From sequence record NC_028894.1: DNA of 64,000 nt; one strand, written 5' to 3'. The notes under the pieces were generated by a model, which was not told the origin of the DNA, ran no database searches, and saw only the letters and a program-made list of their open reading frames with translations. A program made the translations under genes and the position numbers. This DNA is from Escherichia phage vB_EcoM_VR20. Positions 43,024-54,310 of this stretch are shown piece after piece (positions within the stretch are counted from its first letter, which is position 1; each line of letters opens with the position of its first letter).

Positions 43024-43031
43024 TATAAATA
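43024..43031 (+). promoter_or_regulatory. Late promoter TATAAATA of gene 34
   Basis: Exact TATAAATA about 30 bp upstream of the gene 34 ATG. Confidence 0.6.
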
Positions 43032-43061: not shown

Positions 43062-46000
43062 ATGGCCGATATTTTAAAACCAGCATTCAGAGCAACATCC
43101 GGTCTCGATGCTGCTGGTGAGAAAGTCATTAATGTCGCGAAAGCTGATTACTCAGTTTTGTCAGACGGCGTTAACGTAGATTTCTTTATAGAAGAAAACA
43201 CAGTTCAACAATATGATGCAACGCGCGGATACAAAAAGAACTTCGCAGTTATTAATGATAACCGTATTTGGGTTGCTCAGCGTGATATTGATGCTCCAGC
43301 AGGAGCATTTACCCCTCAGTATTGGTTAGCAACCCGTACTGACCCTAAATGGGAAACTGTTGCATCTCCAACTCGTCAGCTTAATTCAGGTGAATTTATC
43401 GCAGTCGACTCAGCTGCAAGCTTTACCACATTTACATTGCCTCCGAACCCGACTGATGGTGATACCATCGTTATTAAAGATATCGGCGGCAATACTGGTT
43501 ATAATGAAATCAAAGTTCAATCGAGCAACGTGCCTGGTCAAGGTAACCAAAAAATTGTTCGTTTTGGTAATCAGTATTCAGAAGTTTTAATTACCAAACC
43601 GTTCTCTTATAATATGCTTATTTTCTCCAACCGCCTTTGGCAGTTCTGGGAAGCAGGTAACGAAGAACGCGGAATAAGAATTGAACCAAGCTCTGGTAAA
43701 TATCGAACTCAAGCATCAGATTTTATTATGCGTCATTATACGACTGCAGAAAAAATTACATTTGTTCTTCCTAAGTATGCTAACCAAGGTGATATTGTCA
43801 AATCGGTAGACATAGATGGATTAGGGCCATTATATCACCTGGATGTTGAAACGTTTGACGAGTCAAGCTCTCTGGGTAAACAGGGCCAACACAGTATGGA
43901 ATTCCGTACAACTGGTGATGGCTTCTTCGTGTATAACGCAGTTGAAAAACTGTGGGTAACCTGGGACGGTGATAACAAAACTCGTTTGCGTGTAATTCGT
44001 GACAATGTAAAATTGTTACCAAACGAAAGTATCATCGTGTTCGGTAATGATAACAACACCTCGCAGACAATTAACATTGACCTTCCAACAGGTGTTCGTC
44101 AGGGTGATGTTGTTAAGATTGCTCTGAACTATCTCCGCAAGGCACAGACGGTTAATATTAGAGCTTCGGCTACTGATAAAATTGCATCTTCTGTTCAGTT
44201 GCTTCAGTTCCCGAAACGTTCGGAATATCCGCCGGACACTGAATGGGTATTTGTTGACTCTTTGACTTTCAATGGTAATATAAGTTATACTCCGGTTATT
44301 GAATTAAGTTACATGGAAGATACGGTTAATAACATTAACTACTGGGTTGTTGCTCAGAACGTTCCGACTATTGAGCGTGTTGACTCGAAGGATGATTTGA
44401 CCCGTGCTCGTCTGGGTGTTATTGCATTAGCTAACCAGGCTCAGGCTAACGTTGACCATGAAAATAACCCTGAAAAAGAATTAGCAATTACCCCGCAGAC
44501 TTTGGCTAACCGTGTGGCTACTGAATCACGTCGTGGTATTGCACGAATTGCTAACACTGCCCAGGTGAACCAGGATACGACTTTTGCTTTCCAGGACGAC
44601 ATCATCATCTCTCCGAAAAAGTTAAACGAACGTACAGCTACAGAAACACGTCGTGGTGTCGCAGAAATCGCCACACAACAAGAAACTGATGCAGGCACTG
44701 ATGATACTACCATCATCACTCCACGCAAGCTACAAGCTCGTCAGGGCTCAGAAAGCCTATCTGGTATCGTTAAGTATGTTCCTACTACCGGGACTACTCC
44801 AGCGACTTCTAGAGCAACTATAGGTACTAACGTTTATAATAAAAATACAACTACTCTGGTAATTTCTCCGAAAGCTTTGGACCAATATAAAGCTGACCAG
44901 AACAACCAAGGTGCTGTATATCTGGCTACTCAGTCAGAAGTTAACGCGGGGGCAACAAATACAGGATTCAGTAACTCGGCAGTGACTCCTGAAACATTAG
45001 GTGCCCGCAGAGCAACAGATTCAAACCATGGTTTAATCGAGATTGCAACTCAAGCAGAAGTTAATACAGGAACCGATTATACCAGAGCTGTGACTCCTAA
45101 AACGTTGAATGACCGTAAAGCAACAGAATCATTATCCGGCATAGCCGAGATTGCTACGCAATCAGAATTTGATAGTGGTACTGATGATACTCGTATTGCA
45201 ACGCCATTAAAAATTAAAACTAGACTGAATGATACTGCTCGTACTTCTGTTATTGCAGCAAGTGGTTTAGTAGAAACAGGGACGCTCTGGGACCATTATA
45301 CGCTGAATATTCTTGAAGCAAATGAGACTCAACGTGGCACCGCAAGACTGGCTACTCAACTTGAAGTTAATACTGGTACTGACGATAAAACAATCGTTAC
45401 TCCGCTTAAGTTGATGTCGAAAAAAGCCACAGAAGGCACCGAAGGTATTGTTCGCATCGCTACTCGTGCAGAAACTATCGCAGGAACAAGTTCAATCCTG
45501 GCTGTTTCTCCGGTTAGTCTGAAATGGATTGCACAGTCCGAACCAACATGGGCAGCAACCACGACGACCCGCGGCTTTGCTAAGATGTCTGAAGGCGCAA
45601 TTACTTTTGTCGGTAATGCAACTGCAGGTTCGACCCAGGCTCTTGACCTGTACGAGAAAAATAGCTATGCTATCTCTCCGTATGAGTTAAACAAAACCCT
45701 TGGTAACTTCCTGCCGCGTTTGGCTAAAGCAGCAGACTCGGATAAACTGGATAACCTGGATAGCACGCAGTTCATTCGTCGTGATATTGACCAAATCGTT
45801 GAAGGTACATTAACCCTTAGAAAGAACATAAGAGTTGATGGTCAGCTGGCGACTGGTGGTACCGGTGAATTTGGCGGCTCGTTGGCGGCTAACTCCACAT
45901 TTACTATACGCAACACAGGAACTCCGACCCGTATCGTTTTCGAAAAAGGTCCTGCCTCCGGTGCAAACCCGGTTCAGTCAATGAGCATCCGTGTATGGGG

Positions 46001-46961
46001 TAACCAGTATGGTGGCGGTTCGGATACGACTCGTTCTACCGTGTTTGAAGTCGGTGATGAAACATCTAACCACTTTTATTCGCAACGGAATAATCTTGGT
46101 AATATTACTTTCAGCATAAACGGTACAGTTCAACCGATTAACGTTAATGCATCCGGAACATTGAATGCTAATGGCGCGGCAACATTTGGACGTTCGGTGA
46201 CAGCACAAGGTGAATTTATAACCTATAGTGCAAACGCATTTAGAGCTATTAATGGTAATTACGGATTCTTTATTCGTAACGATAATGCTAATATCTATTT
46301 TATGCTAACTAATTCAGGTGACCAGACCGGTGGTTTTAATGGATTACGTCCTTTAGCTATTAATAATGCATCTGGCCAGGTTACAATTGGCGAAGGATTA
46401 ATTATTGCTAAAGGAGCTACTATAAATTCAGGTGGTTTAACTGTTAACTCAAGAATTCGTTCTCAAGGTGCTAAACCCGCTGACCTTTATTCTAGAAAAC
46501 CTGATGCAGATAATACAGGCTTCTGGTCTGTTGAAGTTAATGACTCTGCGACATATAATCAGTTCCCGGGTTATTTCAAAATGGTTGAAAAGACCAATGA
46601 AGTAACTGGCCTGCCTTATTTGGAGCGTGGTGAAGAAGTTAAATCACCGGGTACATTAACTCAGTTTGGTAATACGCTGAATTCACTCTATCAAGACTGG
46701 ATTACTTATCCGAATACGGCTAATGCCAGCACGACCCGCTGGACTCGTACATGGCAGCAGAACAAAAACGCATGGTCTGGTTTTGTTCAGGTCTTTGATG
46801 GTGGTAACCCGCCGCAGCCGTCGGATATTGGTGCATTGCCTGCTGATAACGCTTCGATGAGTAACCTGACCATCAGGGATTGGTTAAGAATCGGTAACGT
46901 ACGTATTGTTCCGGACCCAGTAACTAAATCCGTTAAATTCGAATGGATTGATACACCATAA
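43062..46961 (+). CDS. 34: Long tail fibre proximal subunit gp34
   Basis: 1299 aa (T4 1289); internal repeats of the ..ETRRG.AEIATQ.E.. type. Confidence 0.9.
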   Translation: MADILKPAFRATSGLDAAGEKVINVAKADYSVLSDGVNVDFFIEENTVQQYDATRGYKKNFAVINDNRIWVAQRDIDAPAGAFTPQYWLATRTDPKWETVASPTRQLNSGEFIAVDSAASFTTFTLPPNPTDGDTIVIKDIGGNTGYNEIKVQSSNVPGQGNQKIVRFGNQYSEVLITKPFSYNMLIFSNRLWQFWEAGNEERGIRIEPSSGKYRTQASDFIMRHYTTAEKITFVLPKYANQGDIVKSVDIDGLGPLYHLDVETFDESSSLGKQGQHSMEFRTTGDGFFVYNAVEKLWVTWDGDNKTRLRVIRDNVKLLPNESIIVFGNDNNTSQTINIDLPTGVRQGDVVKIALNYLRKAQTVNIRASATDKIASSVQLLQFPKRSEYPPDTEWVFVDSLTFNGNISYTPVIELSYMEDTVNNINYWVVAQNVPTIERVDSKDDLTRARLGVIALANQAQANVDHENNPEKELAITPQTLANRVATESRRGIARIANTAQVNQDTTFAFQDDIIISPKKLNERTATETRRGVAEIATQQETDAGTDDTTIITPRKLQARQGSESLSGIVKYVPTTGTTPATSRATIGTNVYNKNTTTLVISPKALDQYKADQNNQGAVYLATQSEVNAGATNTGFSNSAVTPETLGARRATDSNHGLIEIATQAEVNTGTDYTRAVTPKTLNDRKATESLSGIAEIATQSEFDSGTDDTRIATPLKIKTRLNDTARTSVIAASGLVETGTLWDHYTLNILEANETQRGTARLATQLEVNTGTDDKTIVTPLKLMSKKATEGTEGIVRIATRAETIAGTSSILAVSPVSLKWIAQSEPTWAATTTTRGFAKMSEGAITFVGNATAGSTQALDLYEKNSYAISPYELNKTLGNFLPRLAKAADSDKLDNLDSTQFIRRDIDQIVEGTLTLRKNIRVDGQLATGGTGEFGGSLAANSTFTIRNTGTPTRIVFEKGPASGANPVQSMSIRVWGNQYGGGSDTTRSTVFEVGDETSNHFYSQRNNLGNITFSINGTVQPINVNASGTLNANGAATFGRSVTAQGEFITYSANAFRAINGNYGFFIRNDNANIYFMLTNSGDQTGGFNGLRPLAINNASGQVTIGEGLIIAKGATINSGGLTVNSRIRSQGAKPADLYSRKPDADNTGFWSVEVNDSATYNQFPGYFKMVEKTNEVTGLPYLERGEEVKSPGTLTQFGNTLNSLYQDWITYPNTANASTTRWTRTWQQNKNAWSGFVQVFDGGNPPQPSDIGALPADNASMSNLTIRDWLRIGNVRIVPDPVTKSVKFEWIDTP

Positions 46962-46969
46962 GAGGTATT

Positions 46970-48106
46970 ATGGAAAGATTTATGGCTGAATTTGGACAGG
47001 GATATGTCCATGTTCCCGTGCTTTCTGAAAATAACGCAGTAAGATATAAATTGTCGATTGCTGGGACTTGTACCAAATCGCCAAACTATCCCTACGTTAA
47101 GTTTCAAGATGAGGCCTTCGGGCCTCAGACATTCCAGAATGGATTAAACCTTATTGAGATTGACCCAGTAACAAATACAATCACTGCAACCAAAAACTAT
47201 GGTTTCACAAAAGACTATGATGTCATTTCACAGGCCTTTGTGACTTATATTAATTCCATCCCAGCGGGTAGGATTGTTTGTTTGATATCGCAGGGAAAAT
47301 TGAATGCTTCCCAAACTTTAATTGATTGGTTCAGAACACATGGCTCGACTGCATTTCCGGATAAGTGGTTGATTGACCAAGTTGATACTTCGTATTCGGC
47401 TTTTTATATCTCTGGTCGAAATGCAATCGTTAAAGAGCATGTGCTATATAATGACGGGGTAACTGTTGAGGATGTATTGACTCCATTGGAAATGGTGTAC
47501 GACGACTTCGCTGATGTGGGTGGCACAGGATTCCCTCTGCGCATCGTGGAAGACGGAAACACATATTATAGTAATAGTACACAAGAAATAAAACGCTTCC
47601 CCACAGACTCCCCCATCACTCCTGCGGCCGATTATAATATGGCCCCTGGTGATACTTTTTATCTGAAGTTTCAGCTGACATATGACCAGGCACTTAAAGA
47701 CCTTGGAACAACTCAGATGTCTGTTCGATTCTTTAGTGGTCAGACGATGATTCAGTCAAACGATTATGATATCCCATCTACAGGTCAAGCAAGTCCACCG
47801 GCTGGCGCATGGATGACGTTTGAACGTTATGTAGTTGTTCCACCGAATGCTGATGGATTTACATTGTATGCAAGGAAGACCGTTGCTGCTGGACAAGGTG
47901 GAGTAAGGAATATTTTCTTTACAGAAATCGCGCGACAAGAAACACAAGCTAAATCTGCAGAAATCGGTGTCAACGGCATAAGAATGGTTGTAGCTGGAGA
48001 ACCGGGAAATCTTGGTAATGTCATTGCACAATTGAATGATAAAAATGCAACTAAAGCAAGTCAATCTGGATTTGTATTTGCTGCAGAATTCCGTGAAAAA
48101 GAATAA
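46970..48106 (+). CDS. 35: Long tail fibre hinge gp35
   Basis: 378 aa (T4 372); position. Confidence 0.85.
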   Translation: MERFMAEFGQGYVHVPVLSENNAVRYKLSIAGTCTKSPNYPYVKFQDEAFGPQTFQNGLNLIEIDPVTNTITATKNYGFTKDYDVISQAFVTYINSIPAGRIVCLISQGKLNASQTLIDWFRTHGSTAFPDKWLIDQVDTSYSAFYISGRNAIVKEHVLYNDGVTVEDVLTPLEMVYDDFADVGGTGFPLRIVEDGNTYYSNSTQEIKRFPTDSPITPAADYNMAPGDTFYLKFQLTYDQALKDLGTTQMSVRFFSGQTMIQSNDYDIPSTGQASPPAGAWMTFERYVVVPPNADGFTLYARKTVAAGQGGVRNIFFTEIARQETQAKSAEIGVNGIRMVVAGEPGNLGNVIAQLNDKNATKASQSGFVFAAEFREKE

Positions 48107-48126
48107 GGACCTTCGGGTCCTTTTTT
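48107..48126 (+). terminator. UUCG hairpin terminator after gene 35
   Basis: ggacc-ttcg-ggtcc followed by TTTTTT. Confidence 0.6.
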
Positions 48127-48129
48127 CAT

Positions 48130-48137
48130 TATAAATA
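48130..48137 (+). promoter_or_regulatory. Late promoter TATAAATA of gene 36
   Basis: Exact motif about 25 bp upstream of the gene 36 ATG. Confidence 0.6.
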
Positions 48138-48162: not shown

Positions 48163-48822
48163 ATGGCCGATTTAAGAGTAGGCTCAACGACTGGGGGCTC
48201 AGTTATCTGGCACCAGGGCAACTTTCCGTTGACGCCAGTAAGCAATGATTTATTTTACAAAACATATAAAGTATATACAGAATTCAATAAACCGCAAGCA
48301 GCAGATAACGACTTTGTTTCTAAAGCTAATGGTGGGAATTATTTAAGTACAGTAAACTTTGATAAAGACTTACAATTTAAAGATTCCGATGGGTATTGGG
48401 TTAAATTGGGTAGAAAAACCAATACATCCCCAATGTCTGCTACATATTCTTTCTCATTTAGAATGAGCAAAGGTATGGGTCTTGAGACATCGGATGGTAC
48501 ACCGTTTGTAATTTTCGACCCGACTACTGTTATAGGTGCAAACCGTCTTACTGTAATGGGTGATATCCTTGGTCGTCAAATTAAAGACGAATCAGGTCGA
48601 GTGTTTTCTCCAGGGAATACTCCGTCAAAAGCACAAGTTGGATTAAGTGATGTGGATAACGCAAAACAGGTCCAAATAAATAATAGTAACATACAATCTA
48701 TGGCTGGCGTTCTTTCAGCCCCGAATTTCATATCTAGGAACCCAGGTACATTGAACGAACACGTTCCTCGTATTGACCAGGTTGTTCTTAGAGGCACATC
48801 TGAAGATTTTGGATATTATTAA
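48163..48822 (+). CDS. 36: Long tail fibre distal connector gp36
   Basis: 219 aa (T4 221). Confidence 0.85.
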   Translation: MADLRVGSTTGGSVIWHQGNFPLTPVSNDLFYKTYKVYTEFNKPQAADNDFVSKANGGNYLSTVNFDKDLQFKDSDGYWVKLGRKTNTSPMSATYSFSFRMSKGMGLETSDGTPFVIFDPTTVIGANRLTVMGDILGRQIKDESGRVFSPGNTPSKAQVGLSDVDNAKQVQINNSNIQSMAGVLSAPNFISRNPGTLNEHVPRIDQVVLRGTSEDFGYY

Positions 48823-48830
48823 GAGGCATT

Positions 48831-51800
48831 ATGGCTACTTTAAAATCAATACAATTTAAAAGAAGTAAAATAGCAGGAGCCAAGCCTACTGCAGCTCAGT
48901 TAGATGAAGGTGAACTGGCTATTAACTTACGCGACCGCACGATTTATACCAAAACCGACCAGAACCAGATTATTGACCTGGGTTTTGCTAAAGGTGGACA
49001 GGTTGATGGTGATATTCTCCAGAACGGCACATTTAACCTCAATGGTAATATGTTCGTTTACGCTGGTAAGTATATTGAATTTTTACCTAAAACTGCCGGT
49101 AATGGTGCCTGGGCTAACCAGCACTTGAATAAAGCTCCTATCTTTGCAGATTTAAGTTCAACTACCTCAGTATCAGAATATCATCCTCTGATTAAGCAAC
49201 GTTATAAAGACGGTACTTTTTCTGCTGGTACATTAGTAAACGAAGGTAGTTTTAAATTCCATTATATTGATGAAACCGGTGATTCGAAATATTGGACTTT
49301 TAATCGAAATGGTAATTTCATCGTAGATTCCGGTAGTATTGAAGTTCGTACCGGTAATATTTCTGCTTCAGGCAATATAAACTCTGCTAATGGTATTATC
49401 ACCGGTCCTGAAATTGTTACTAAAAATATTAATTTTAGTACAAAAACATTTGTAGCTAATGCTAACATTGGATATGATTGGGTTTCTTTACCTACTTGGG
49501 TTTATAACCCACCGGCTGATGGTTCTGATAATACTACTAACGGTTTAAACTATTTGCGTAAATTACGTGCATCAAGTGCATCAAGTATTTTCCATGAAAT
49601 TGCCGATTGCCGAAAAGGCAAGCCACAAGAAATTTCTTGGTGGACCGGTGTAGGTCCGGCATCTTTCCAATGGGCGTTTGATACTAGTGGGCGTATTACT
49701 GCAGGTAAATCTATTTCTGTTGGTCTTCCTGATAGTGGTACAAACGGCCGTTATCCTTTAGATTCTGCGATTTCTATAGGTATTGCCATCGGTGATAACG
49801 ATACAGGTATTAAATGGGTCCGTGACGGCGTTATCGATTTAATGGCCAATGGTATTTCATCTGCAACTATTCTTAATAACGGTATTAATAGTACTAAAAA
49901 ATTGATGGTTGGATATAGTCGAGATTCTGGTTCTACTTGGGATTTCCCAAATAACAACCAAGCAATGTTTACTGCTCGTACTGATATTGATGGCAATAAT
50001 AACGGTGATGGTCAGACTCATATCGGTTATAACAGCAATTCTAAAATGTATCACTATTTCCGTGGCACGGGTCGTATGGCTGTTGGTATGGCCGAAGGGC
50101 TTATTGTTGAACCAGGAATTTTAGATATTAAAACCGGTTCTAATAGCGTTGCTATTAGAGCGGACGGAACAATTAACTCCACCCAGCGTATTTCTATGCG
50201 TACGGGCTTGTTTTTAAATGGTGATGATAATACTAATGCTTTATCGTTTAAAGCGCCTTCTGGTGTTGATGGTACTAAAACTATCAATTGGGACGCAGGT
50301 ATTCGTAACGGTCAAAACAAAAACACTGTAACACTTAAAGCTTGGGGTAACTCCTTTAACGCAGGCGGCGGTAACAGAGAAACTGTATTTGAAGTATCAG
50401 ATTCACAAGGTTATTATTTTTATGCCCAGCGTACAAATCCGGCCGTTGCCGGAGGTATAGGACCTGTCAACTTTAAGTTTAACGGAACTGTTGAAACAGG
50501 CCATATCATAGGCCTTGGTGATATTACTGCTTCCGGTACAGGTTCTTTTGGTGGCAATGTTACCATGACTAATGGCCTGTTTGTCCAAGGTGGTTCTTCT
50601 ATTACTGGCCAAGTTAAAATTGGTGGAACGGCAGATGCATTAAGAATTTGGAATGCTGAATACGGTGCTATTTTCCGTCGTTCAGAAACAGCATTACATA
50701 TTATCCCGACTAATAAAGATGCCGGTGAAAGCGGTGGAATAAGTAATCTTCGCCCATTAAGTATTGGTCTTGATAATGGTATGGTACAAATGCGCCATTC
50801 TGTCACGATAGGCGATAATGGTACTGGCGGTAATATGATTACTGTGGACAACGATAGCAAACTTGTTGTTGTTACTAGTAATAGTCGCATTTCTCCTAAT
50901 TTCCGTATGCAGATAGGACAAGCATCGTATATTGATGCTGAATGTACTGACACAGTTCGCCCTGCGGGAGCTGGTTCTTTTGCTTCACAGAATAATGAAA
51001 ACGTCCGTGCTCCGTTCTATATGAATATTGATAGAGCTGATACTGGTACATATGTTCCGATTTTGAAACAACGTTATGTTCAAGGCAACGGCTGCTATTC
51101 ATTAGGGACTTTAATTAATAATGGTAACTTTAGAGTTCATTATCATGAAGGCGGAGATAACGGTTCTTCAGGTCCACAGACTGCTGATTTTGGATGGGAA
51201 TTTATTAAAAACGGTGATTTTATTTCACCTCGCGATTTAATAGCAGGCAAAGTCAGATTTGATAGAAATGGTAACATCACGGGTGGTTCTGGTAATTTTG
51301 CTAACTTGAACACAACTTTAGACCGCAAAGTTACCACGGGCTGGATTAATTATGTTGATAGTGGTTGGTATAAATTAGCAACAGTAACTATGCCTCAGGG
51401 TGTGGCTACGGCCCAATTTAAAATTACCGGTGGTTCTGGATTTAACGTTGGTATTTTCAGACAAGCAACAATTAATGAAATTGTATTACGCTCGGGTAAT
51501 AATACACCTAAAGGAATTAATGGCGTTTTATGGCAGCGTGAAACGGATGCTATTAAAGACATAGCATATATTAATATCTCTGGCGATGAATATGATGTTT
51601 ATATTAATTGTGGCACCTATTTAAATAGACTTACAATCGAATATAGCACGTCAGAAAATGCTTCAGTAGTAGTTCATGGATTATACGGGCCTACCCAATC
51701 ACCAATAGCAGAACTTCCTGTAGACAGTGTTAAAGGACGCGTTTTTAAACTTCTTAACAATAGCTCAGGTGTTTTTGATGCAGGTAGTTCTAATATTTCT

Positions 51801-52799
51801 ACAAACGCTACATTTGTTGCTAATACAACCATTGGATTCCGTCACAAATCTAATGGTGACGAAAGCGGTTCCGCTGCTACTTTGTTTTATAATGATGGTA
51901 CTACGTTCCACATATTATTAACAGATAAAAATACCGATGCTGATAAAACTAAAGCCTCAGGTTCTTATAATAGCTTGAGACCTTTTTCTATTAATATTGC
52001 TTCCGGTAAAGTAACTATTTCAAACTCTATGAGCGTTTCTGGGTTATCAGAGTTTTATAATGGCCTTAACATCAAAAATAATGGAAGCATTAACTTTGAT
52101 AAATCAGGTACTAACCCGAGAAACATGCGTATATTCCATGCTGGCGATGCTTCTCGTGGAAACCGTATTGAAATAGCTGATGACAGTAGTTACTTGGTTT
52201 ATTTTCAACGTTATGCAGCCGGCGGCATTGTTTGTTCATTTAACAACTCTGATATGACCGGGGTGCAAACTCTTAACGTCGAGACCAAAATTAATACCCC
52301 ACAAATTGGCTCATTTGGCGTTAATACGACCAACGCACTTGGTGGTAACTCGATTGCAATCGGTGATACTGACACTGGTATTAAACAGAGTGGTGATGGT
52401 ATTTTTGATATTATTACTAATGCCGCCCGCCGCATGAGATTCCAGTCAGGTGATACTTATTCGGATATGAATATTAACGCCCCGAACGTTTATATTCGTT
52501 CTGATATTCGTTTGAAATCTAACTTCAAACCTATTGAAAATGCTCTTGACAAGGTTGAACAACTAGACGGTTTAATCTACGATAAAGCAGACTACATTGG
52601 CGGTGAAGTTGTTCATACCGAAGCAGGTGTTATTGCACAGAGTTTAGAAAAAGTATTACCTGAAGCTATTCGTGAAGTTGACGACATTAAAGGTAACAAA
52701 GTTCTTACCGTTTCAACCCAGGCACAAGTTGCTCTGTTAATTGAAGCAGTTAAAACTCTGTCGGCTAAAGTTAAAGAACTTGAAGCAAAACTTAATTAA
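48831..52799 (+). CDS. 37: Long tail fibre distal subunit gp37, T2-type with C-terminal chaperone-like domain
   Basis: 1322 aa; N-terminal half matches recalled T4 gp37; last ~110 aa resemble an intramolecular chaperone domain with coiled-coil end. Confidence 0.85.
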   Translation: MATLKSIQFKRSKIAGAKPTAAQLDEGELAINLRDRTIYTKTDQNQIIDLGFAKGGQVDGDILQNGTFNLNGNMFVYAGKYIEFLPKTAGNGAWANQHLNKAPIFADLSSTTSVSEYHPLIKQRYKDGTFSAGTLVNEGSFKFHYIDETGDSKYWTFNRNGNFIVDSGSIEVRTGNISASGNINSANGIITGPEIVTKNINFSTKTFVANANIGYDWVSLPTWVYNPPADGSDNTTNGLNYLRKLRASSASSIFHEIADCRKGKPQEISWWTGVGPASFQWAFDTSGRITAGKSISVGLPDSGTNGRYPLDSAISIGIAIGDNDTGIKWVRDGVIDLMANGISSATILNNGINSTKKLMVGYSRDSGSTWDFPNNNQAMFTARTDIDGNNNGDGQTHIGYNSNSKMYHYFRGTGRMAVGMAEGLIVEPGILDIKTGSNSVAIRADGTINSTQRISMRTGLFLNGDDNTNALSFKAPSGVDGTKTINWDAGIRNGQNKNTVTLKAWGNSFNAGGGNRETVFEVSDSQGYYFYAQRTNPAVAGGIGPVNFKFNGTVETGHIIGLGDITASGTGSFGGNVTMTNGLFVQGGSSITGQVKIGGTADALRIWNAEYGAIFRRSETALHIIPTNKDAGESGGISNLRPLSIGLDNGMVQMRHSVTIGDNGTGGNMITVDNDSKLVVVTSNSRISPNFRMQIGQASYIDAECTDTVRPAGAGSFASQNNENVRAPFYMNIDRADTGTYVPILKQRYVQGNGCYSLGTLINNGNFRVHYHEGGDNGSSGPQTADFGWEFIKNGDFISPRDLIAGKVRFDRNGNITGGSGNFANLNTTLDRKVTTGWINYVDSGWYKLATVTMPQGVATAQFKITGGSGFNVGIFRQATINEIVLRSGNNTPKGINGVLWQRETDAIKDIAYINISGDEYDVYINCGTYLNRLTIEYSTSENASVVVHGLYGPTQSPIAELPVDSVKGRVFKLLNNSSGVFDAGSSNISTNATFVANTTIGFRHKSNGDESGSAATLFYNDGTTFHILLTDKNTDADKTKASGSYNSLRPFSINIASGKVTISNSMSVSGLSEFYNGLNIKNNGSINFDKSGTNPRNMRIFHAGDASRGNRIEIADDSSYLVYFQRYAAGGIVCSFNNSDMTGVQTLNVETKINTPQIGSFGVNTTNALGGNSIAIGDTDTGIKQSGDGIFDIITNAARRMRFQSGDTYSDMNINAPNVYIRSDIRLKSNFKPIENALDKVEQLDGLIYDKADYIGGEVVHTEAGVIAQSLEKVLPEAIREVDDIKGNKVLTVSTQAQVALLIEAVKTLSAKVKELEAKLN

Positions 52800-52802
52800 C
52801 AA

Positions 52803-52818
52803 GAGGGCTTCGGCCCTC
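52803..52818 (+). other. UUCG stem-loop between genes 37 and 38
   Basis: gagggc-ttcg-gccctc without a strong T-run. Confidence 0.4.
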
Positions 52819-52830
52819 TAAGGATTTTTA

Positions 52831-53619
52831 ATGGCAATTGTAGGTGTTCCTGGTTGGATTGGACAATCTGCCGTAGATGAAACGGGACAACGTTGGATGG
52901 ATGCCGCTATGCGCGATGTGCGAGTTGCAGTACCCGGTTGGATGGGGTCGATGGCAGGACAATCAAAAGAAATTTATCTATCTATAGGGGCTAATAACTC
53001 TTATGATAGAAACTCCCTTATTAACTGGATGAGGGCTCAAGGTGGTGCGCCTGTAGTTATTACAATCACCGGTAACTTAGTATCCAATAGCACCGGTAAC
53101 GCTTGTTTGGAATTTCCTAGCAATCTTCCTAACGCGTATATTCAACTTATCATTAATAGCGGTGTGACTGTTTATGGCCGAGGAGGTAATGGTTCTACTA
53201 ATGGTTCGGCAGGTGGAAACGGTGGTACAGCTATCCATAACGCAGCCGGAACTAAACTCCGTATTCGTAATAACGGCGCTATTGCCGGTGGTGGCGGTGG
53301 CGGTGGCGCAGTATCATTGCAAAATAGCTACCCGACTAATGGTACATGCGGTGGTGGTGGTGGTAGACCATTTGGCGTAGGTGGCAAAATAGGCTCTGAC
53401 GCTATATTGTCCGGTTCGAATGCGTCTTTAACAGCTGCCGGTACAGGTGGTGCTACAGTCCAATATGGTGGAGGTAATGGCGGTAACGTTGGAGCTGGCG
53501 GTGGACGAGGATGGGGCAAAAATGTTTATACCTCTGCAGGTGGCTCAGCTGGTGCTGCTGTCACTGGCAATGCTCCTAACTGGCAAAACGTAGGAACTAT
53601 TTACGGCTCAAGAGTCTAG
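52831..53619 (+). CDS. 38: gp38 receptor-recognising adhesin, T2/T6 type
   Basis: 262 aa; conserved N-terminus MAIVGVPGWIGQSAV.ETGQRWM, poly-glycine blocks, C-terminal GTIYGSRV. Confidence 0.75.
   Translation: MAIVGVPGWIGQSAVDETGQRWMDAAMRDVRVAVPGWMGSMAGQSKEIYLSIGANNSYDRNSLINWMRAQGGAPVVITITGNLVSNSTGNACLEFPSNLPNAYIQLIINSGVTVYGRGGNGSTNGSAGGNGGTAIHNAAGTKLRIRNNGAIAGGGGGGGAVSLQNSYPTNGTCGGGGGRPFGVGGKIGSDAILSGSNASLTAAGTGGATVQYGGGNGGNVGAGGGRGWGKNVYTSAGGSAGAAVTGNAPNWQNVGTIYGSRV
53287..53307 (+). repeat. GGY codon microsatellite encoding poly-Gly inside gene 38
   Basis: ggtggtggcggtggcggtggc seen directly. Confidence 0.6.
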
Positions 53620-53630
53620 TGCAAAAGCAT

Positions 53631-53638
53631 TATAAATA
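53631..53638 (+). promoter_or_regulatory. Late promoter TATAAATA of holin gene t
   Basis: Exact motif about 20 bp upstream of the t ATG, with AAAGGAGAAAAG Shine-Dalgarno. Confidence 0.6.
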
Positions 53639-53656: not shown

Positions 53657-54310
53657 ATGGAACCAAAAGTAGGAATCTCAATACCCGACCTACTTTTTGG
53701 ACTTCTTGATAGAATTTTTAAAGATAATGCAACCGGGAAAGTTGTCTTTTCCCGGGTACTAGTTATTGTTCTATTATTTTTAATGGCGGTAATCTGGTAT
53801 AAAGGTGATGCAATTTTAGATGCGTATAGGGATGCTTCATATGCCTCGTACACAGAAATGATAAGGCAAGACCAGGATAACAGATTTAAAATTGCAGCTA
53901 TCGAGCAAATCCAGATAGTTCACTCATCAAGCGGAGCAGACTTTACAGCGATATATTCCTTTAGACCAACTAACCTTAACTACTTCGTGGATATGGTGGG
54001 GTACGAGGGGATATTACCTGAATCAGTTGACGAAAAAAATTTGGGTGGGTTTCCAATAGATAAGACTTCAGCGGAATATTTGGCGGGGGTTAATGGTAAT
54101 TATTTTGAATCCGGCACGGAATCTGTATTCTTACCAACAAAGAAAAAAAGCAGCTTCGAATATATGTTCAGCTGCCCATTCTTTAATTTGGAAAACGTTT
54201 ACGCAGGCACAGTCTCGTTGTACTGGTATAAGCAAAAACCCGACCTTAGTTTTGATAGGCTTTCTGCTATGTGTGGGCAAGCAGGTCGTACGCTCGGGCG
54301 TACACGTTAG
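53657..54310 (+). CDS. t: Holin T
   Basis: 217 aa (T4 218); single N-terminal transmembrane helix; LFG.LDR.FKDNATGKV matches recalled T4 T. Confidence 0.88.
   Translation: MEPKVGISIPDLLFGLLDRIFKDNATGKVVFSRVLVIVLLFLMAVIWYKGDAILDAYRDASYASYTEMIRQDQDNRFKIAAIEQIQIVHSSSGADFTAIYSFRPTNLNYFVDMVGYEGILPESVDEKNLGGFPIDKTSAEYLAGVNGNYFESGTESVFLPTKKKSSFEYMFSCPFFNLENVYAGTVSLYWYKQKPDLSFDRLSAMCGQAGRTLGRTR

What the first reader, a model, noticed from the sequence alone, without database searches (positions are those of the whole stretch)
48831..53619. T2-type adhesin module: extended gp37 with chaperone-like C-terminus plus Gly-rich gp38
gp37 is 1322 aa against 1026 in T4 and lacks the T4 His-box tip; its C-terminus resembles a self-cleaving intramolecular chaperone domain. 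The following gene encodes a 262-aa gp38 with a conserved N-terminal gp37-attachment region and poly-glycine blocks, the T2/T6/S16 architecture in which gp38 is the receptor binder.
Basis: partly seen in the sequence, partly recalled or inferred. Interest (0 to 1): 0.5.

Follow-up and report, generated by a model that had tools for sequence, protein, structure and literature searches.

The report
T2-type tail-fibre adhesin module, known
These two genes are the ordinary, already annotated long-tail-fibre tip of the published coliphage vB_EcoM_VR20: a fibre protein that probably cuts off its own folding domain, followed by a T2-like glycine-rich adhesin that caps the fibre and binds the host.

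Summary
ORF 48831-52799 (+) encodes a 1322-aa gp37 and ORF 52831-53619 (+) a 262-aa gp38, between genes 34-35-36 and holin t.

The interpretation also holds:
- gp38 matches Pfam GP38 (E 1e-78) and Gp38_N (E 7e-16).
- It is 92% identical over its full length to T2 gp38 and 50% to T6 gp38.
- It matches the solved S16 adhesin (6F45_D, E 1.5e-43) and shows no similarity to T4 gp38 (E 2.4).
- gp37 has none of the seven GxHxH boxes of the T4 tip.
- gp37 ends in a Peptidase_S74 intramolecular chaperone domain (aa 1224-1322). Its junction, NVYIR|SDIRLK, is identical to that of T2.
- Ser1224 and Lys1229 are invariant in 81 homologues, and the predicted fold matches solved chaperone domains.

Neither gene is new. 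Both proteins are exact matches to GenBank entries of Escherichia phage vB_EcoM_VR20 (Gaprivervirus), already named distal tail fibre subunit and long tail fibre adhesin.

Only two points are specific to this phage. gp37 is a recombinational mosaic. gp38 carries 21 substitutions relative to T2, including position 161, a site reported to separate T2 from SV76, so the receptor (OmpF or FadL as the best guess) cannot be read off safely. Interest is low.

The parts
48130..48137 (+). T4-type late promoter motif TATAAATA upstream of gene 36. It probably drives a 36-37-38 late transcript.
   Evidence: Exact motif. It follows a terminator-like hairpin plus T-run after gene 35. Its function is inferred from the T4 late-promoter consensus, not tested.
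48831..52799 (+). Gene 37, the long tail fibre distal subunit precursor (1322 aa).
   Evidence: ORF. It is 85% identical to dhaeg gp37, 82% to CJ20, 53% to T2 over aa 1-1081, and 51% to T4 over aa 1-881. Exact match to YP_009207440.1 of phage VR20.
48831..52499 (+). Predicted mature gp37 (aa 1-1223), the trimeric fibre shaft ending in ...NAPNVYIR.
   Evidence: The cleavage position is inferred from alignment to the S16 site DLNVS^SDRRIKK and the fPS site DVYIR^SDGRLKI (PMC7917993), and from the identical NVYIR/SDIRLK context in T2. Not shown experimentally for this phage.
52332..52499 (+). gp37 distal tip (aa 1168-1223), homologous to the S16 gp37 beta-helix that carries the gp38 docking surface.
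   Evidence: phmmer match to 6F45_A at E 7e-10, covering aa 1168-1320. Foldseek match of the model to 6F45 chains A-C at 44-45% identity over 41-47 residues.
52500..52796 (+). Peptidase_S74 intramolecular chaperone domain (aa 1224-1322) with the Ser1224/Lys1229 pair. It is predicted to be auto-cleaved after trimerisation.
   Evidence: Pfam PF13884 at E 8e-15. S, D and K are invariant in 81 sequences. The AF2 model has pLDDT above 90 over this domain. Foldseek hits are 7DC3 (E 9e-6), 3GW6 (E 1e-3) and 3GUD.
52802..52819 (+). Intercistronic hairpin with a UUCG tetraloop between genes 37 and 38. An AAGGA ribosome-binding site follows it.
   Evidence: Sequence. Predicted fold of -13.4 kcal/mol, and conserved in T2, dhaeg, CJ20 and, in variant form, T4.
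52831..53619 (+). Gene 38, the T2-type receptor-recognising adhesin (262 aa).
   Evidence: Pfam GP38 at E 1e-78. 92% identity to T2 gp38. 6F45_D at E 1.5e-43 and 9v85 at E 2e-39. Exact match to YP_009207441.1.
52831..52956 (+). gp38 N-terminal gp37-attachment domain (aa 1-42) with Trp9, Trp22 and Trp37.
   Evidence: Pfam Gp38_N at E 7e-16. The three Trp are invariant in the T2, T6, dhaeg and CJ20 alignment. Their role as prongs that insert into gp37 pockets is taken from the S16 structure (PMC6851490).
53176..53559 (+). gp38 glycine-rich motifs and the variable segments between them (aa 116-243). This is the predicted polyglycine sandwich with receptor-binding loops.
   Evidence: 33% Gly with runs at 118-119, 128-132, 153-159, 174-178, 184-185, 206-207, 213-218, 223-225 and 237-238. 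The G7 run aligns with the long central glycine run of S16 gp38, which PMC6851490 numbers 151-158 as helix 3. 12 of the 21 differences from T2 lie in this region.
53657..54310 (+). Holin t, the downstream boundary of the module. It has its own late promoter motif at 53631-53638.
   Evidence: Pfam Phage_holin_T at E 3e-66. TATAAATA motif.

Best explanation
This is the distal long-tail-fibre module of Escherichia phage vB_EcoM_VR20 (Gaprivervirus), built on the T2/S16 plan.

Proposed mechanism, in order:
1. gp37 is made as a 1322-aa precursor.
2. Its C-terminal S74 intramolecular chaperone domain (aa 1224-1322) nucleates trimerisation of the beta-helical fibre.
3. The domain then removes itself by Ser1224/Lys1229-mediated autoproteolysis between Arg1223 and Ser1224.
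4. Cleavage exposes a flat triangular tip ending in ...NVYIR.
5. One copy of gp38 docks on that tip through its N-terminal three-helix domain (Trp9, Trp22, Trp37).
6. gp38 presents its polyglycine sandwich, whose variable distal loops bind an outer-membrane protein.

The receptor is most likely OmpF and/or FadL, as for T2.

What is shown here: the gene structures, the family memberships, the conserved catalytic and docking residues, the predicted chaperone fold, and identity to deposited VR20 proteins.

What is inferred from T2 and S16: the cleavage itself, the 3:1 stoichiometry, the presence of gp38 in the virion, and the receptor.
For: - ORFs and synteny 34-35-36-37-38-t.
- gp38: Pfam GP38 at 1e-78 and Gp38_N at 7e-16. 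92% identity to T2 gp38 over all 262 aa. Same 90% cluster as T2 gp38. S16 gp38 structure 6F45_D at E 1.5e-43 over aa 8-260. Invariant W9, W22 and W37.
- gp37: S74 domain at E 8e-15. The SDIRLK context is identical to T2, dhaeg and CJ20. S, D and K are invariant in 81 homologues. The AF2 model has mean pLDDT 83, above 90 over the chaperone domain. Foldseek finds the MyRF ICA domain 7DC3, the endosialidase chaperone 3GW6, the GA-1 chaperone 3GUD and the S16 gp37 tip 6F45.
- The T4-type His boxes are absent.
[quoted passage not shown] The gp37 trimer, single gp38 and tryptophan prongs are described in PMC6851490. T2 gp38 recognises FadL and OmpF (PMC12529663, PMC8594841).
- Both proteins are exact matches to annotated VR20 proteins.
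Against: Nothing contradicts the architecture.

The receptor assignment is weak. gp38 differs from T2 at 21 positions, 12 of them in the Gly-rich/variable region. One of these is position 161 (Val here, Ala in T2, Thr in SV76). That is one of only two residues separating T2 (OmpF/FadL) from SV76 (OmpF/FhuA) according to PMC12529663.

Cleavage and virion incorporation were not observed for this phage. The structure was predicted for a monomer although the domain works as a trimer. The tip part of the model (residues 1-60) has only pLDDT 53-76.
Confidence: 0.93

Rival explanations
1. gp38 is a T4-type assembly chaperone that is not part of the virion, and the tip of gp37 itself binds the receptor.
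For: Only the gene name and position are shared with T4 gene 38.
Against: There is no sequence similarity to T4 gp38 (BLASTP E 2.4). There are strong matches to the adhesin family and to solved adhesin structures. gp37 lacks the T4 receptor-binding needle with its seven GxHxH boxes.
Confidence: 0.01
2. The S74 domain is a degenerate, non-cleaving remnant that stays on the mature fibre, so gp38 would have to attach elsewhere or not at all.
For: No cleavage data exist for this phage. The tip part of the model has modest confidence.
Against: The Ser/Asp/Lys triplet is invariant among 81 homologues. The junction sequence is identical to T2 and aligns to the experimentally defined S16 cleavage site (PMC7917993). 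The chaperone part of the model is high-confidence and matches solved auto-processing domains. From my own knowledge, not checked here: T2 gp37 was shown to lose about 120 C-terminal residues (Drexler, Riede and Henning 1986).
Confidence: 0.04
3. The architecture is T2-type, but the adhesin recognises a receptor other than OmpF/FadL (for example FhuA, OmpC, Tsx or an LPS epitope) because of its substitutions in the variable loops.
For: There are 21 substitutions relative to T2. These include position 161, plus A208 and G214, which are unique within the 90% cluster. T2 and SV76 differ by 2 residues yet are reported to use partly different receptors (PMC12529663).
Against: Closely related gp38 adhesins generally share a receptor (PMC12032242). 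Identity to T2 is 92% over the full length, and most variable segments are conserved.
Confidence: 0.35

Closest known systems
Phage T2 gp37/gp38 (Tequatrovirus T2)
   Same: The gene order is the same. gp38 is also 262 aa and 92% identical. gp37 has the same S74 C-terminus, with an identical NAPNVYIRSDIRLKSNFKPIEN junction and 71% identity over the last 175 aa. The UUCG hairpin between the two genes is the same.
   Different: The gp37 shaft is only 53% identical over aa 1-1081, and aa 1082-1146 do not align. gp37 is 1322 aa here against 1341 aa in T2. gp38 has 21 substitutions. The genomic backbone is Gaprivervirus, not Tequatrovirus.
Salmonella phage S16 gp37-gp38 tip complex (PDB 6F45)
   Same: gp38 aligns over aa 8-260 at E 1.5e-43. 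The alignment includes the N-terminal Trp-bearing domain, the G7/G8 central glycine motif and GGGGGRP. The gp37 tip plus chaperone domain aligns at E 7e-10, with the cleavage-site Ser and Lys conserved.
   Different: Identity is much lower, the variable loops are of different lengths, and S16 uses Salmonella OmpC. The sequence before the cleavage site is NVYIR here and DLNVS in S16 (PMC7917993).
Escherichia phages dhaeg (Dhakavirus) and CJ20 (Gaprivervirus)
   Same: These are the nearest full-length gp37 relatives in the local phage collection, at 85% and 82% identity. Their gp38 proteins are 92% and 86% identical.
   Different: The window gp37 is a mosaic of the two. It is CJ20-like at aa 1-840 and 1161-1322, dhaeg-like at aa 841-1120, and unlike both at aa 1121-1160. 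CJ20 gp38 diverges after aa 170.
Phage T4 gp37/gp38
   Same: The N-terminal two thirds of gp37 are homologous (51% over aa 1-881). The flanking genes 34, 35, 36 and t are the same.
   Different: T4 gp37 ends in a needle with seven GxHxH boxes and has no S74 domain. T4 gp38 is an unrelated 183-aa chaperone.
Endosialidase / tailspike intramolecular chaperone domains (Peptidase S74; PDB 3GW6, 3GUD; MyRF ICA 7DC3)
   Same: Same Pfam family, the same Ser-x4-Lys pair at the domain start, and the same predicted fold.
   Different: Here the domain sits on a T-even long tail fibre. Its removal is thought to create a docking site for a separate adhesin rather than to finish a self-sufficient spike.

Membership tests
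T2/S16-type gp38 adhesin (Pfam PF05268 GP38 + PF21721 Gp38_N) | Profile match above the curated cut-off for both domains | tested here: met
   GP38 scores 264 bits against a cut-off of 25. Gp38_N scores 58 bits against a cut-off of 25.
T2/S16-type gp38 adhesin (Pfam PF05268 GP38 + PF21721 Gp38_N) | N-terminal attachment domain with three conserved tryptophans | tested here: met
   W9, W22 and W37 are invariant against T2, T6, dhaeg and CJ20. Their role is taken from PMC6851490 and PMC7917993.
T2/S16-type gp38 adhesin (Pfam PF05268 GP38 + PF21721 Gp38_N) | Conserved glycine-rich motifs separated by variable segments | tested here: met
   The Gly runs are listed. They align with those of S16 and of 9v85. 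The glycine motifs are invariant and the segments between them vary. The three-dimensional polyglycine sandwich was not modelled here.
T2/S16-type gp38 adhesin (Pfam PF05268 GP38 + PF21721 Gp38_N) | Encoded directly downstream of a gene 37 that ends in a cleavable chaperone domain, and upstream of t | tested here: met
T2/S16-type gp38 adhesin (Pfam PF05268 GP38 + PF21721 Gp38_N) | Present on the virion fibre tip and determines the receptor | not testable with these tools
   Needs virion proteomics and receptor-mutant plating.
Peptidase S74 intramolecular chaperone domain | Pfam PF13884 match above the cut-off at the extreme C-terminus | tested here: met
   55 bits against a cut-off of 22, at aa 1224-1280.
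Peptidase S74 intramolecular chaperone domain | Catalytic Ser and Lys five residues apart at the domain start | tested here: met
   S1224 and K1229 in SDIRLK. Both are invariant in 81 aligned homologues.
Peptidase S74 intramolecular chaperone domain | Chaperone-domain fold | tested here: met
   The AF2 model has pLDDT above 90 over the domain. Foldseek finds 7DC3 at E 9e-6, 3GW6 at E 1e-3 and 3GUD at probability 0.97.
Peptidase S74 intramolecular chaperone domain | Autoproteolytic release after trimerisation | not testable with these tools
   Inferred from S16 (PMC7917993). T2 processing is from my own knowledge (Drexler et al. 1986).
T4-type gp37 receptor-binding needle | Series of GxHxH His boxes near the C-terminus | tested here: not met
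   T4 has 7 at aa 883-998. The window gp37 has none there, only HYH at aa 770. BLASTP to T4 gp37 stops at aa 881.
T4-type gp38 assembly chaperone | Sequence similarity to T4 gp38 (183 aa) | tested here: not met
   BLASTP E 2.4.

The most novel reading that the evidence does not exclude
Two local peculiarities might give VR20 a receptor specificity or adsorption behaviour that differs from T2 and from its Gaprivervirus relatives. The first is a subterminal gp37 block (aa 1121-1160) that is at most 52% identical to dhaeg, CJ20 and T2; over the wider aa 1081-1200 the best match in the local phage collection is 71%. The second is a set of gp38 substitutions at 161, 208 and 214. If so, VR20 would be a natural example of host-range retargeting by very few residues or by a tip-proximal segment swap.
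Probability: 0.15. Interest if true: 0.3.

Novelty: already known. Interest (0 to 1): 0.08.

Why it matters
It matters little beyond correct annotation. The T2-type arrangement is the majority architecture among T-even phages (PMC6851490). It has a crystal structure (6F45), and it is already annotated for this very phage.

The practical value is modest. The module shows the modular, recombining nature of tail-fibre genes: Gaprivervirus and Dhakavirus-like gp37 segments combined with a T2-like gp38. It also provides a natural gp38 variant 21 residues away from T2, which could be used in receptor-specificity mapping or fibre engineering.

Tried and rejected
- T4-type reading of gene 38: rejected, BLASTP E 2.4.
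- T4-type His-box tip: rejected by motif count and by the extent of the alignment.
- Retrieving the VR20 record (NC_028894) from the local phage collection: not held.
- Exact look-up of the gp37-encoding contig: nothing on record. The identification as VR20 therefore rests on exact identity of both proteins.
- Papers on VR20's fibre genes: the search found nothing specific.
- Reference to T2-type gp37 proteins in the homologue search: the search with the gp37 C-terminus returned mostly short metagenomic and prophage S74 proteins and no T-even gp37. This is probably a limit of the word index. It was good enough for a structure-prediction alignment but says nothing about distribution.
- gp38 structure: not modelled. 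The sequence match to the solved S16 adhesin already covers nearly the whole protein, so a second large database search was not justified.
- tRNA scan of the window: none found.
Full report
**Observation.** They lie in the canonical T-even late block. Upstream are gene 34 (43062-46961, Pfam Gp34_2nd and Gp34_trimer), gene 35 (46970-48106) and gene 36 (48163-48822). Downstream is holin t (53657-54310, Phage_holin_T E 3e-66). T4-type late promoter motifs TATAAATA precede genes 34, 36 and t at 43024, 48130 and 53631. Genes 36, 37 and 38 therefore look like one late transcription unit. This is an inference from the T4 consensus.

**Source of the window.** An exact-sequence look-up finds both proteins in GenBank and RefSeq. 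They are AIZ02319.1/YP_009207440.1 ("long tail fiber protein distal subunit") and AIZ02320.1/YP_009207441.1 ("long tail fiber adhesin") of Escherichia phage vB_EcoM_VR20. That phage belongs to species Gaprivervirus vr20.
- The backbone of the window is about 95% identical at nucleotide level to Gaprivervirus CJ20 and to other closely matching coliphages such as vB_EcoM_RZ.
- The VR20 record is not in the local phage collection, which explains why the best DNA hits to the module reach only 82-92%.
- The public T2 record annotates its own gp38 as "similar to vB_EcoM_VR20 long tail fiber adhesin".

**gp38.**
- It matches Pfam GP38 (E 1.3e-78, aa 47-262) and Gp38_N (E 6.8e-16, aa 1-42).
- It is 92% identical to T2 gp38 without any gap, 92% to dhaeg, 86% to CJ20 and 50% to T6. 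It falls in the same 90% cluster as T2 gp38.
- Against solved structures it matches the S16 adhesin 6F45_D (E 1.5e-43, aa 8-260) and a GFP-gp38 fusion, 9v85 (E 1.9e-39).
- Trp9, Trp22 and Trp37 are invariant. In S16 the equivalent residues insert into three equivalent pockets of the gp37 trimer (PMC6851490, PMC7917993).
- Glycine makes up 33% of aa 116-262. The G7 run at 153-159 aligns with the long central glycine run of S16 gp38, which PMC6851490 numbers 151-158 as helix 3.

**gp37.**
- T4 gp37 (1026 aa) aligns only to aa 1-881 at 51% identity.
- T4 has seven GxHxH boxes between aa 883 and 998. The window protein has none there, only an HYH at aa 770 that corresponds to the non-tip T4 motif at aa 742.
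- Instead, the C-terminus matches Peptidase_S74 (E 8.3e-15, aa 1224-1280).
- The junction NAPNVYIR|SDIRLKSNFKPIEN is identical in T2, dhaeg and CJ20.
- It aligns to the S16 construct 6F45_A across the experimentally defined S16 cleavage site (site DLNVS^SDRRIKK from PMC7917993).
- In an alignment with 80 diverse S74-containing homologues, Ser1224, Asp1225 and Lys1229 are invariant.

**Predicted fold of the gp37 C-terminus.** An AlphaFold2 model of aa 1161-1322 has mean pLDDT 83, above 90 across the chaperone domain. Foldseek against the PDB returns the following:
- MyRF intramolecular chaperone auto-processing domain 7DC3 (E 9e-6)
- endosialidase intramolecular chaperone 3GW6 (E 1e-3)
- GA-1 chaperone domain 3GUD (probability 0.97)
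- for the N-terminal strands, the S16 gp37 tip 6F45 (44-45% identity)

The observed 6F45 gp37 chains are only 68-72 residues long. This fits the chaperone domain having been cleaved off in that crystal.

**Mechanism.** The best-supported account is the established T2/S16 one.
1. The S74 domain assists trimerisation of the gp37 beta-helix.
2. It cuts itself off between Arg1223 and Ser1224, releasing 99 residues.
3. Cleavage exposes the ...NVYIR tip.
4. A single gp38 caps that tip through its Trp-bearing helical domain.
5. gp38 presents the variable loops of its polyglycine sandwich to an outer-membrane protein.

Gene structure, family membership, conserved catalytic and docking residues, and the chaperone fold are shown here. 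Cleavage, stoichiometry, virion location and receptor are inferred from S16 and T2.

**Receptor.** T2 gp38 recognises FadL and OmpF (PMC8594841, PMC12529663), and close gp38 relatives usually share receptors (PMC12032242). OmpF and/or FadL is therefore the default guess.

The guess is weak. The protein differs from T2 at 21 positions, 12 of them in the Gly-rich/variable region. At position 161 it has Val, where T2 has Ala and SV76 has Thr. T2 and SV76 differ at only two residues (161 and 207) yet are reported to use OmpF/FadL and OmpF/FhuA respectively (PMC12529663). Ala208 and Gly214 are unique within the named members of the cluster.

**What is particular to this phage.** gp37 is a mosaic:

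| gp37 residues | Identity to CJ20 (Gaprivervirus) | Identity to dhaeg (Dhakavirus) | Identity to T2 |
|---|---|---|---|
| 1-840 | mostly 90-100% | lower from about aa 561 | not stated |
| 841-1120 | 30-70% | 85-95% | not stated |
| 1121-1160 | 22% | 52% | 16% |
| 1161-1322 | 90-100% | 72-98% | 65-85% |

A tblastn search with aa 1081-1200 finds nothing above 71% in the local phage collection. It also hits Peduovirus and Salmonella, Yersinia and Cronobacter phages. This is the familiar segmental exchange of tail-fibre genes and does not change the functional reading.

**Verdict.** The feature is an already deposited, correctly annotated member of a structurally characterised family. Novelty: already known. 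Interest: low.

Noticed in passing
window 46970-48106 (gene 35 product, aa 57-129): The gp35 hinge connector gives a Pfam match to ILEI (interleukin-like EMT inducer / FAM3 domain, PF15711) at E 1.7e-9, 38.5 bits against a cut-off of 27. This is an unexpected family name for a phage tail-fibre hinge protein.
   Followed up: no
window 48831-52799, gp37 aa 841-1160: gp37 is a recombinational mosaic. aa 841-1120 are 85-95% identical to Dhakavirus dhaeg but only 30-70% to Gaprivervirus CJ20. aa 1121-1160 are at most 52% identical to dhaeg, CJ20 or T2. The best tblastn hit for aa 1081-1200 is 71%.
   Followed up: partly
window 52071-52430 (gp37 aa 1081-1200): tblastn of this subterminal segment also hits Peduovirus (P2-like) records and Salmonella, Yersinia, Cronobacter and Enterobacter phages. 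S74-ended homologues also occur in Salmonella enterica and E. coli genome records. This suggests a tip and chaperone module shared across unrelated phage groups.
   Followed up: no
window 52802-52819: A 7-bp hairpin with a UUCG tetraloop sits between genes 37 and 38 (-13.4 kcal/mol). It is conserved in T2, dhaeg and CJ20, and in variant form in T4.
   Followed up: partly
window 48107-48137: A terminator-like hairpin GGACCTTCGGGTCC, also with a UUCG loop, plus a T-run lies directly after gene 35. The late promoter motif TATAAATA follows it ahead of gene 36.
   Followed up: no
window 48831-52799, gp37 aa 122-165 / 746-790 and aa 315-345 / 1172-1200: There are two pairs of internal repeats in gp37. 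One is (L/I)(I/L)KQRY...G(T/S)L(V/I)N.G.F..HY at aa 122 and 746. The other is IAIGD.DTGIK...DG(I/V).D at aa 321 and 1178.
   Followed up: no
window 48831-52799, gp37 aa 514-645: The middle of gp37 matches the Pfam Gp34_trimer domain (E 1e-10, two stretches). A gp34-type trimerisation module is therefore reused in the distal half-fibre.
   Followed up: no
whole window: The window is from Escherichia phage vB_EcoM_VR20, by exact protein identity. That record is missing from the local phage collection, and its gp37 gene is not in the contig index. No tRNA genes occur in the 64 kb.
   Followed up: yes
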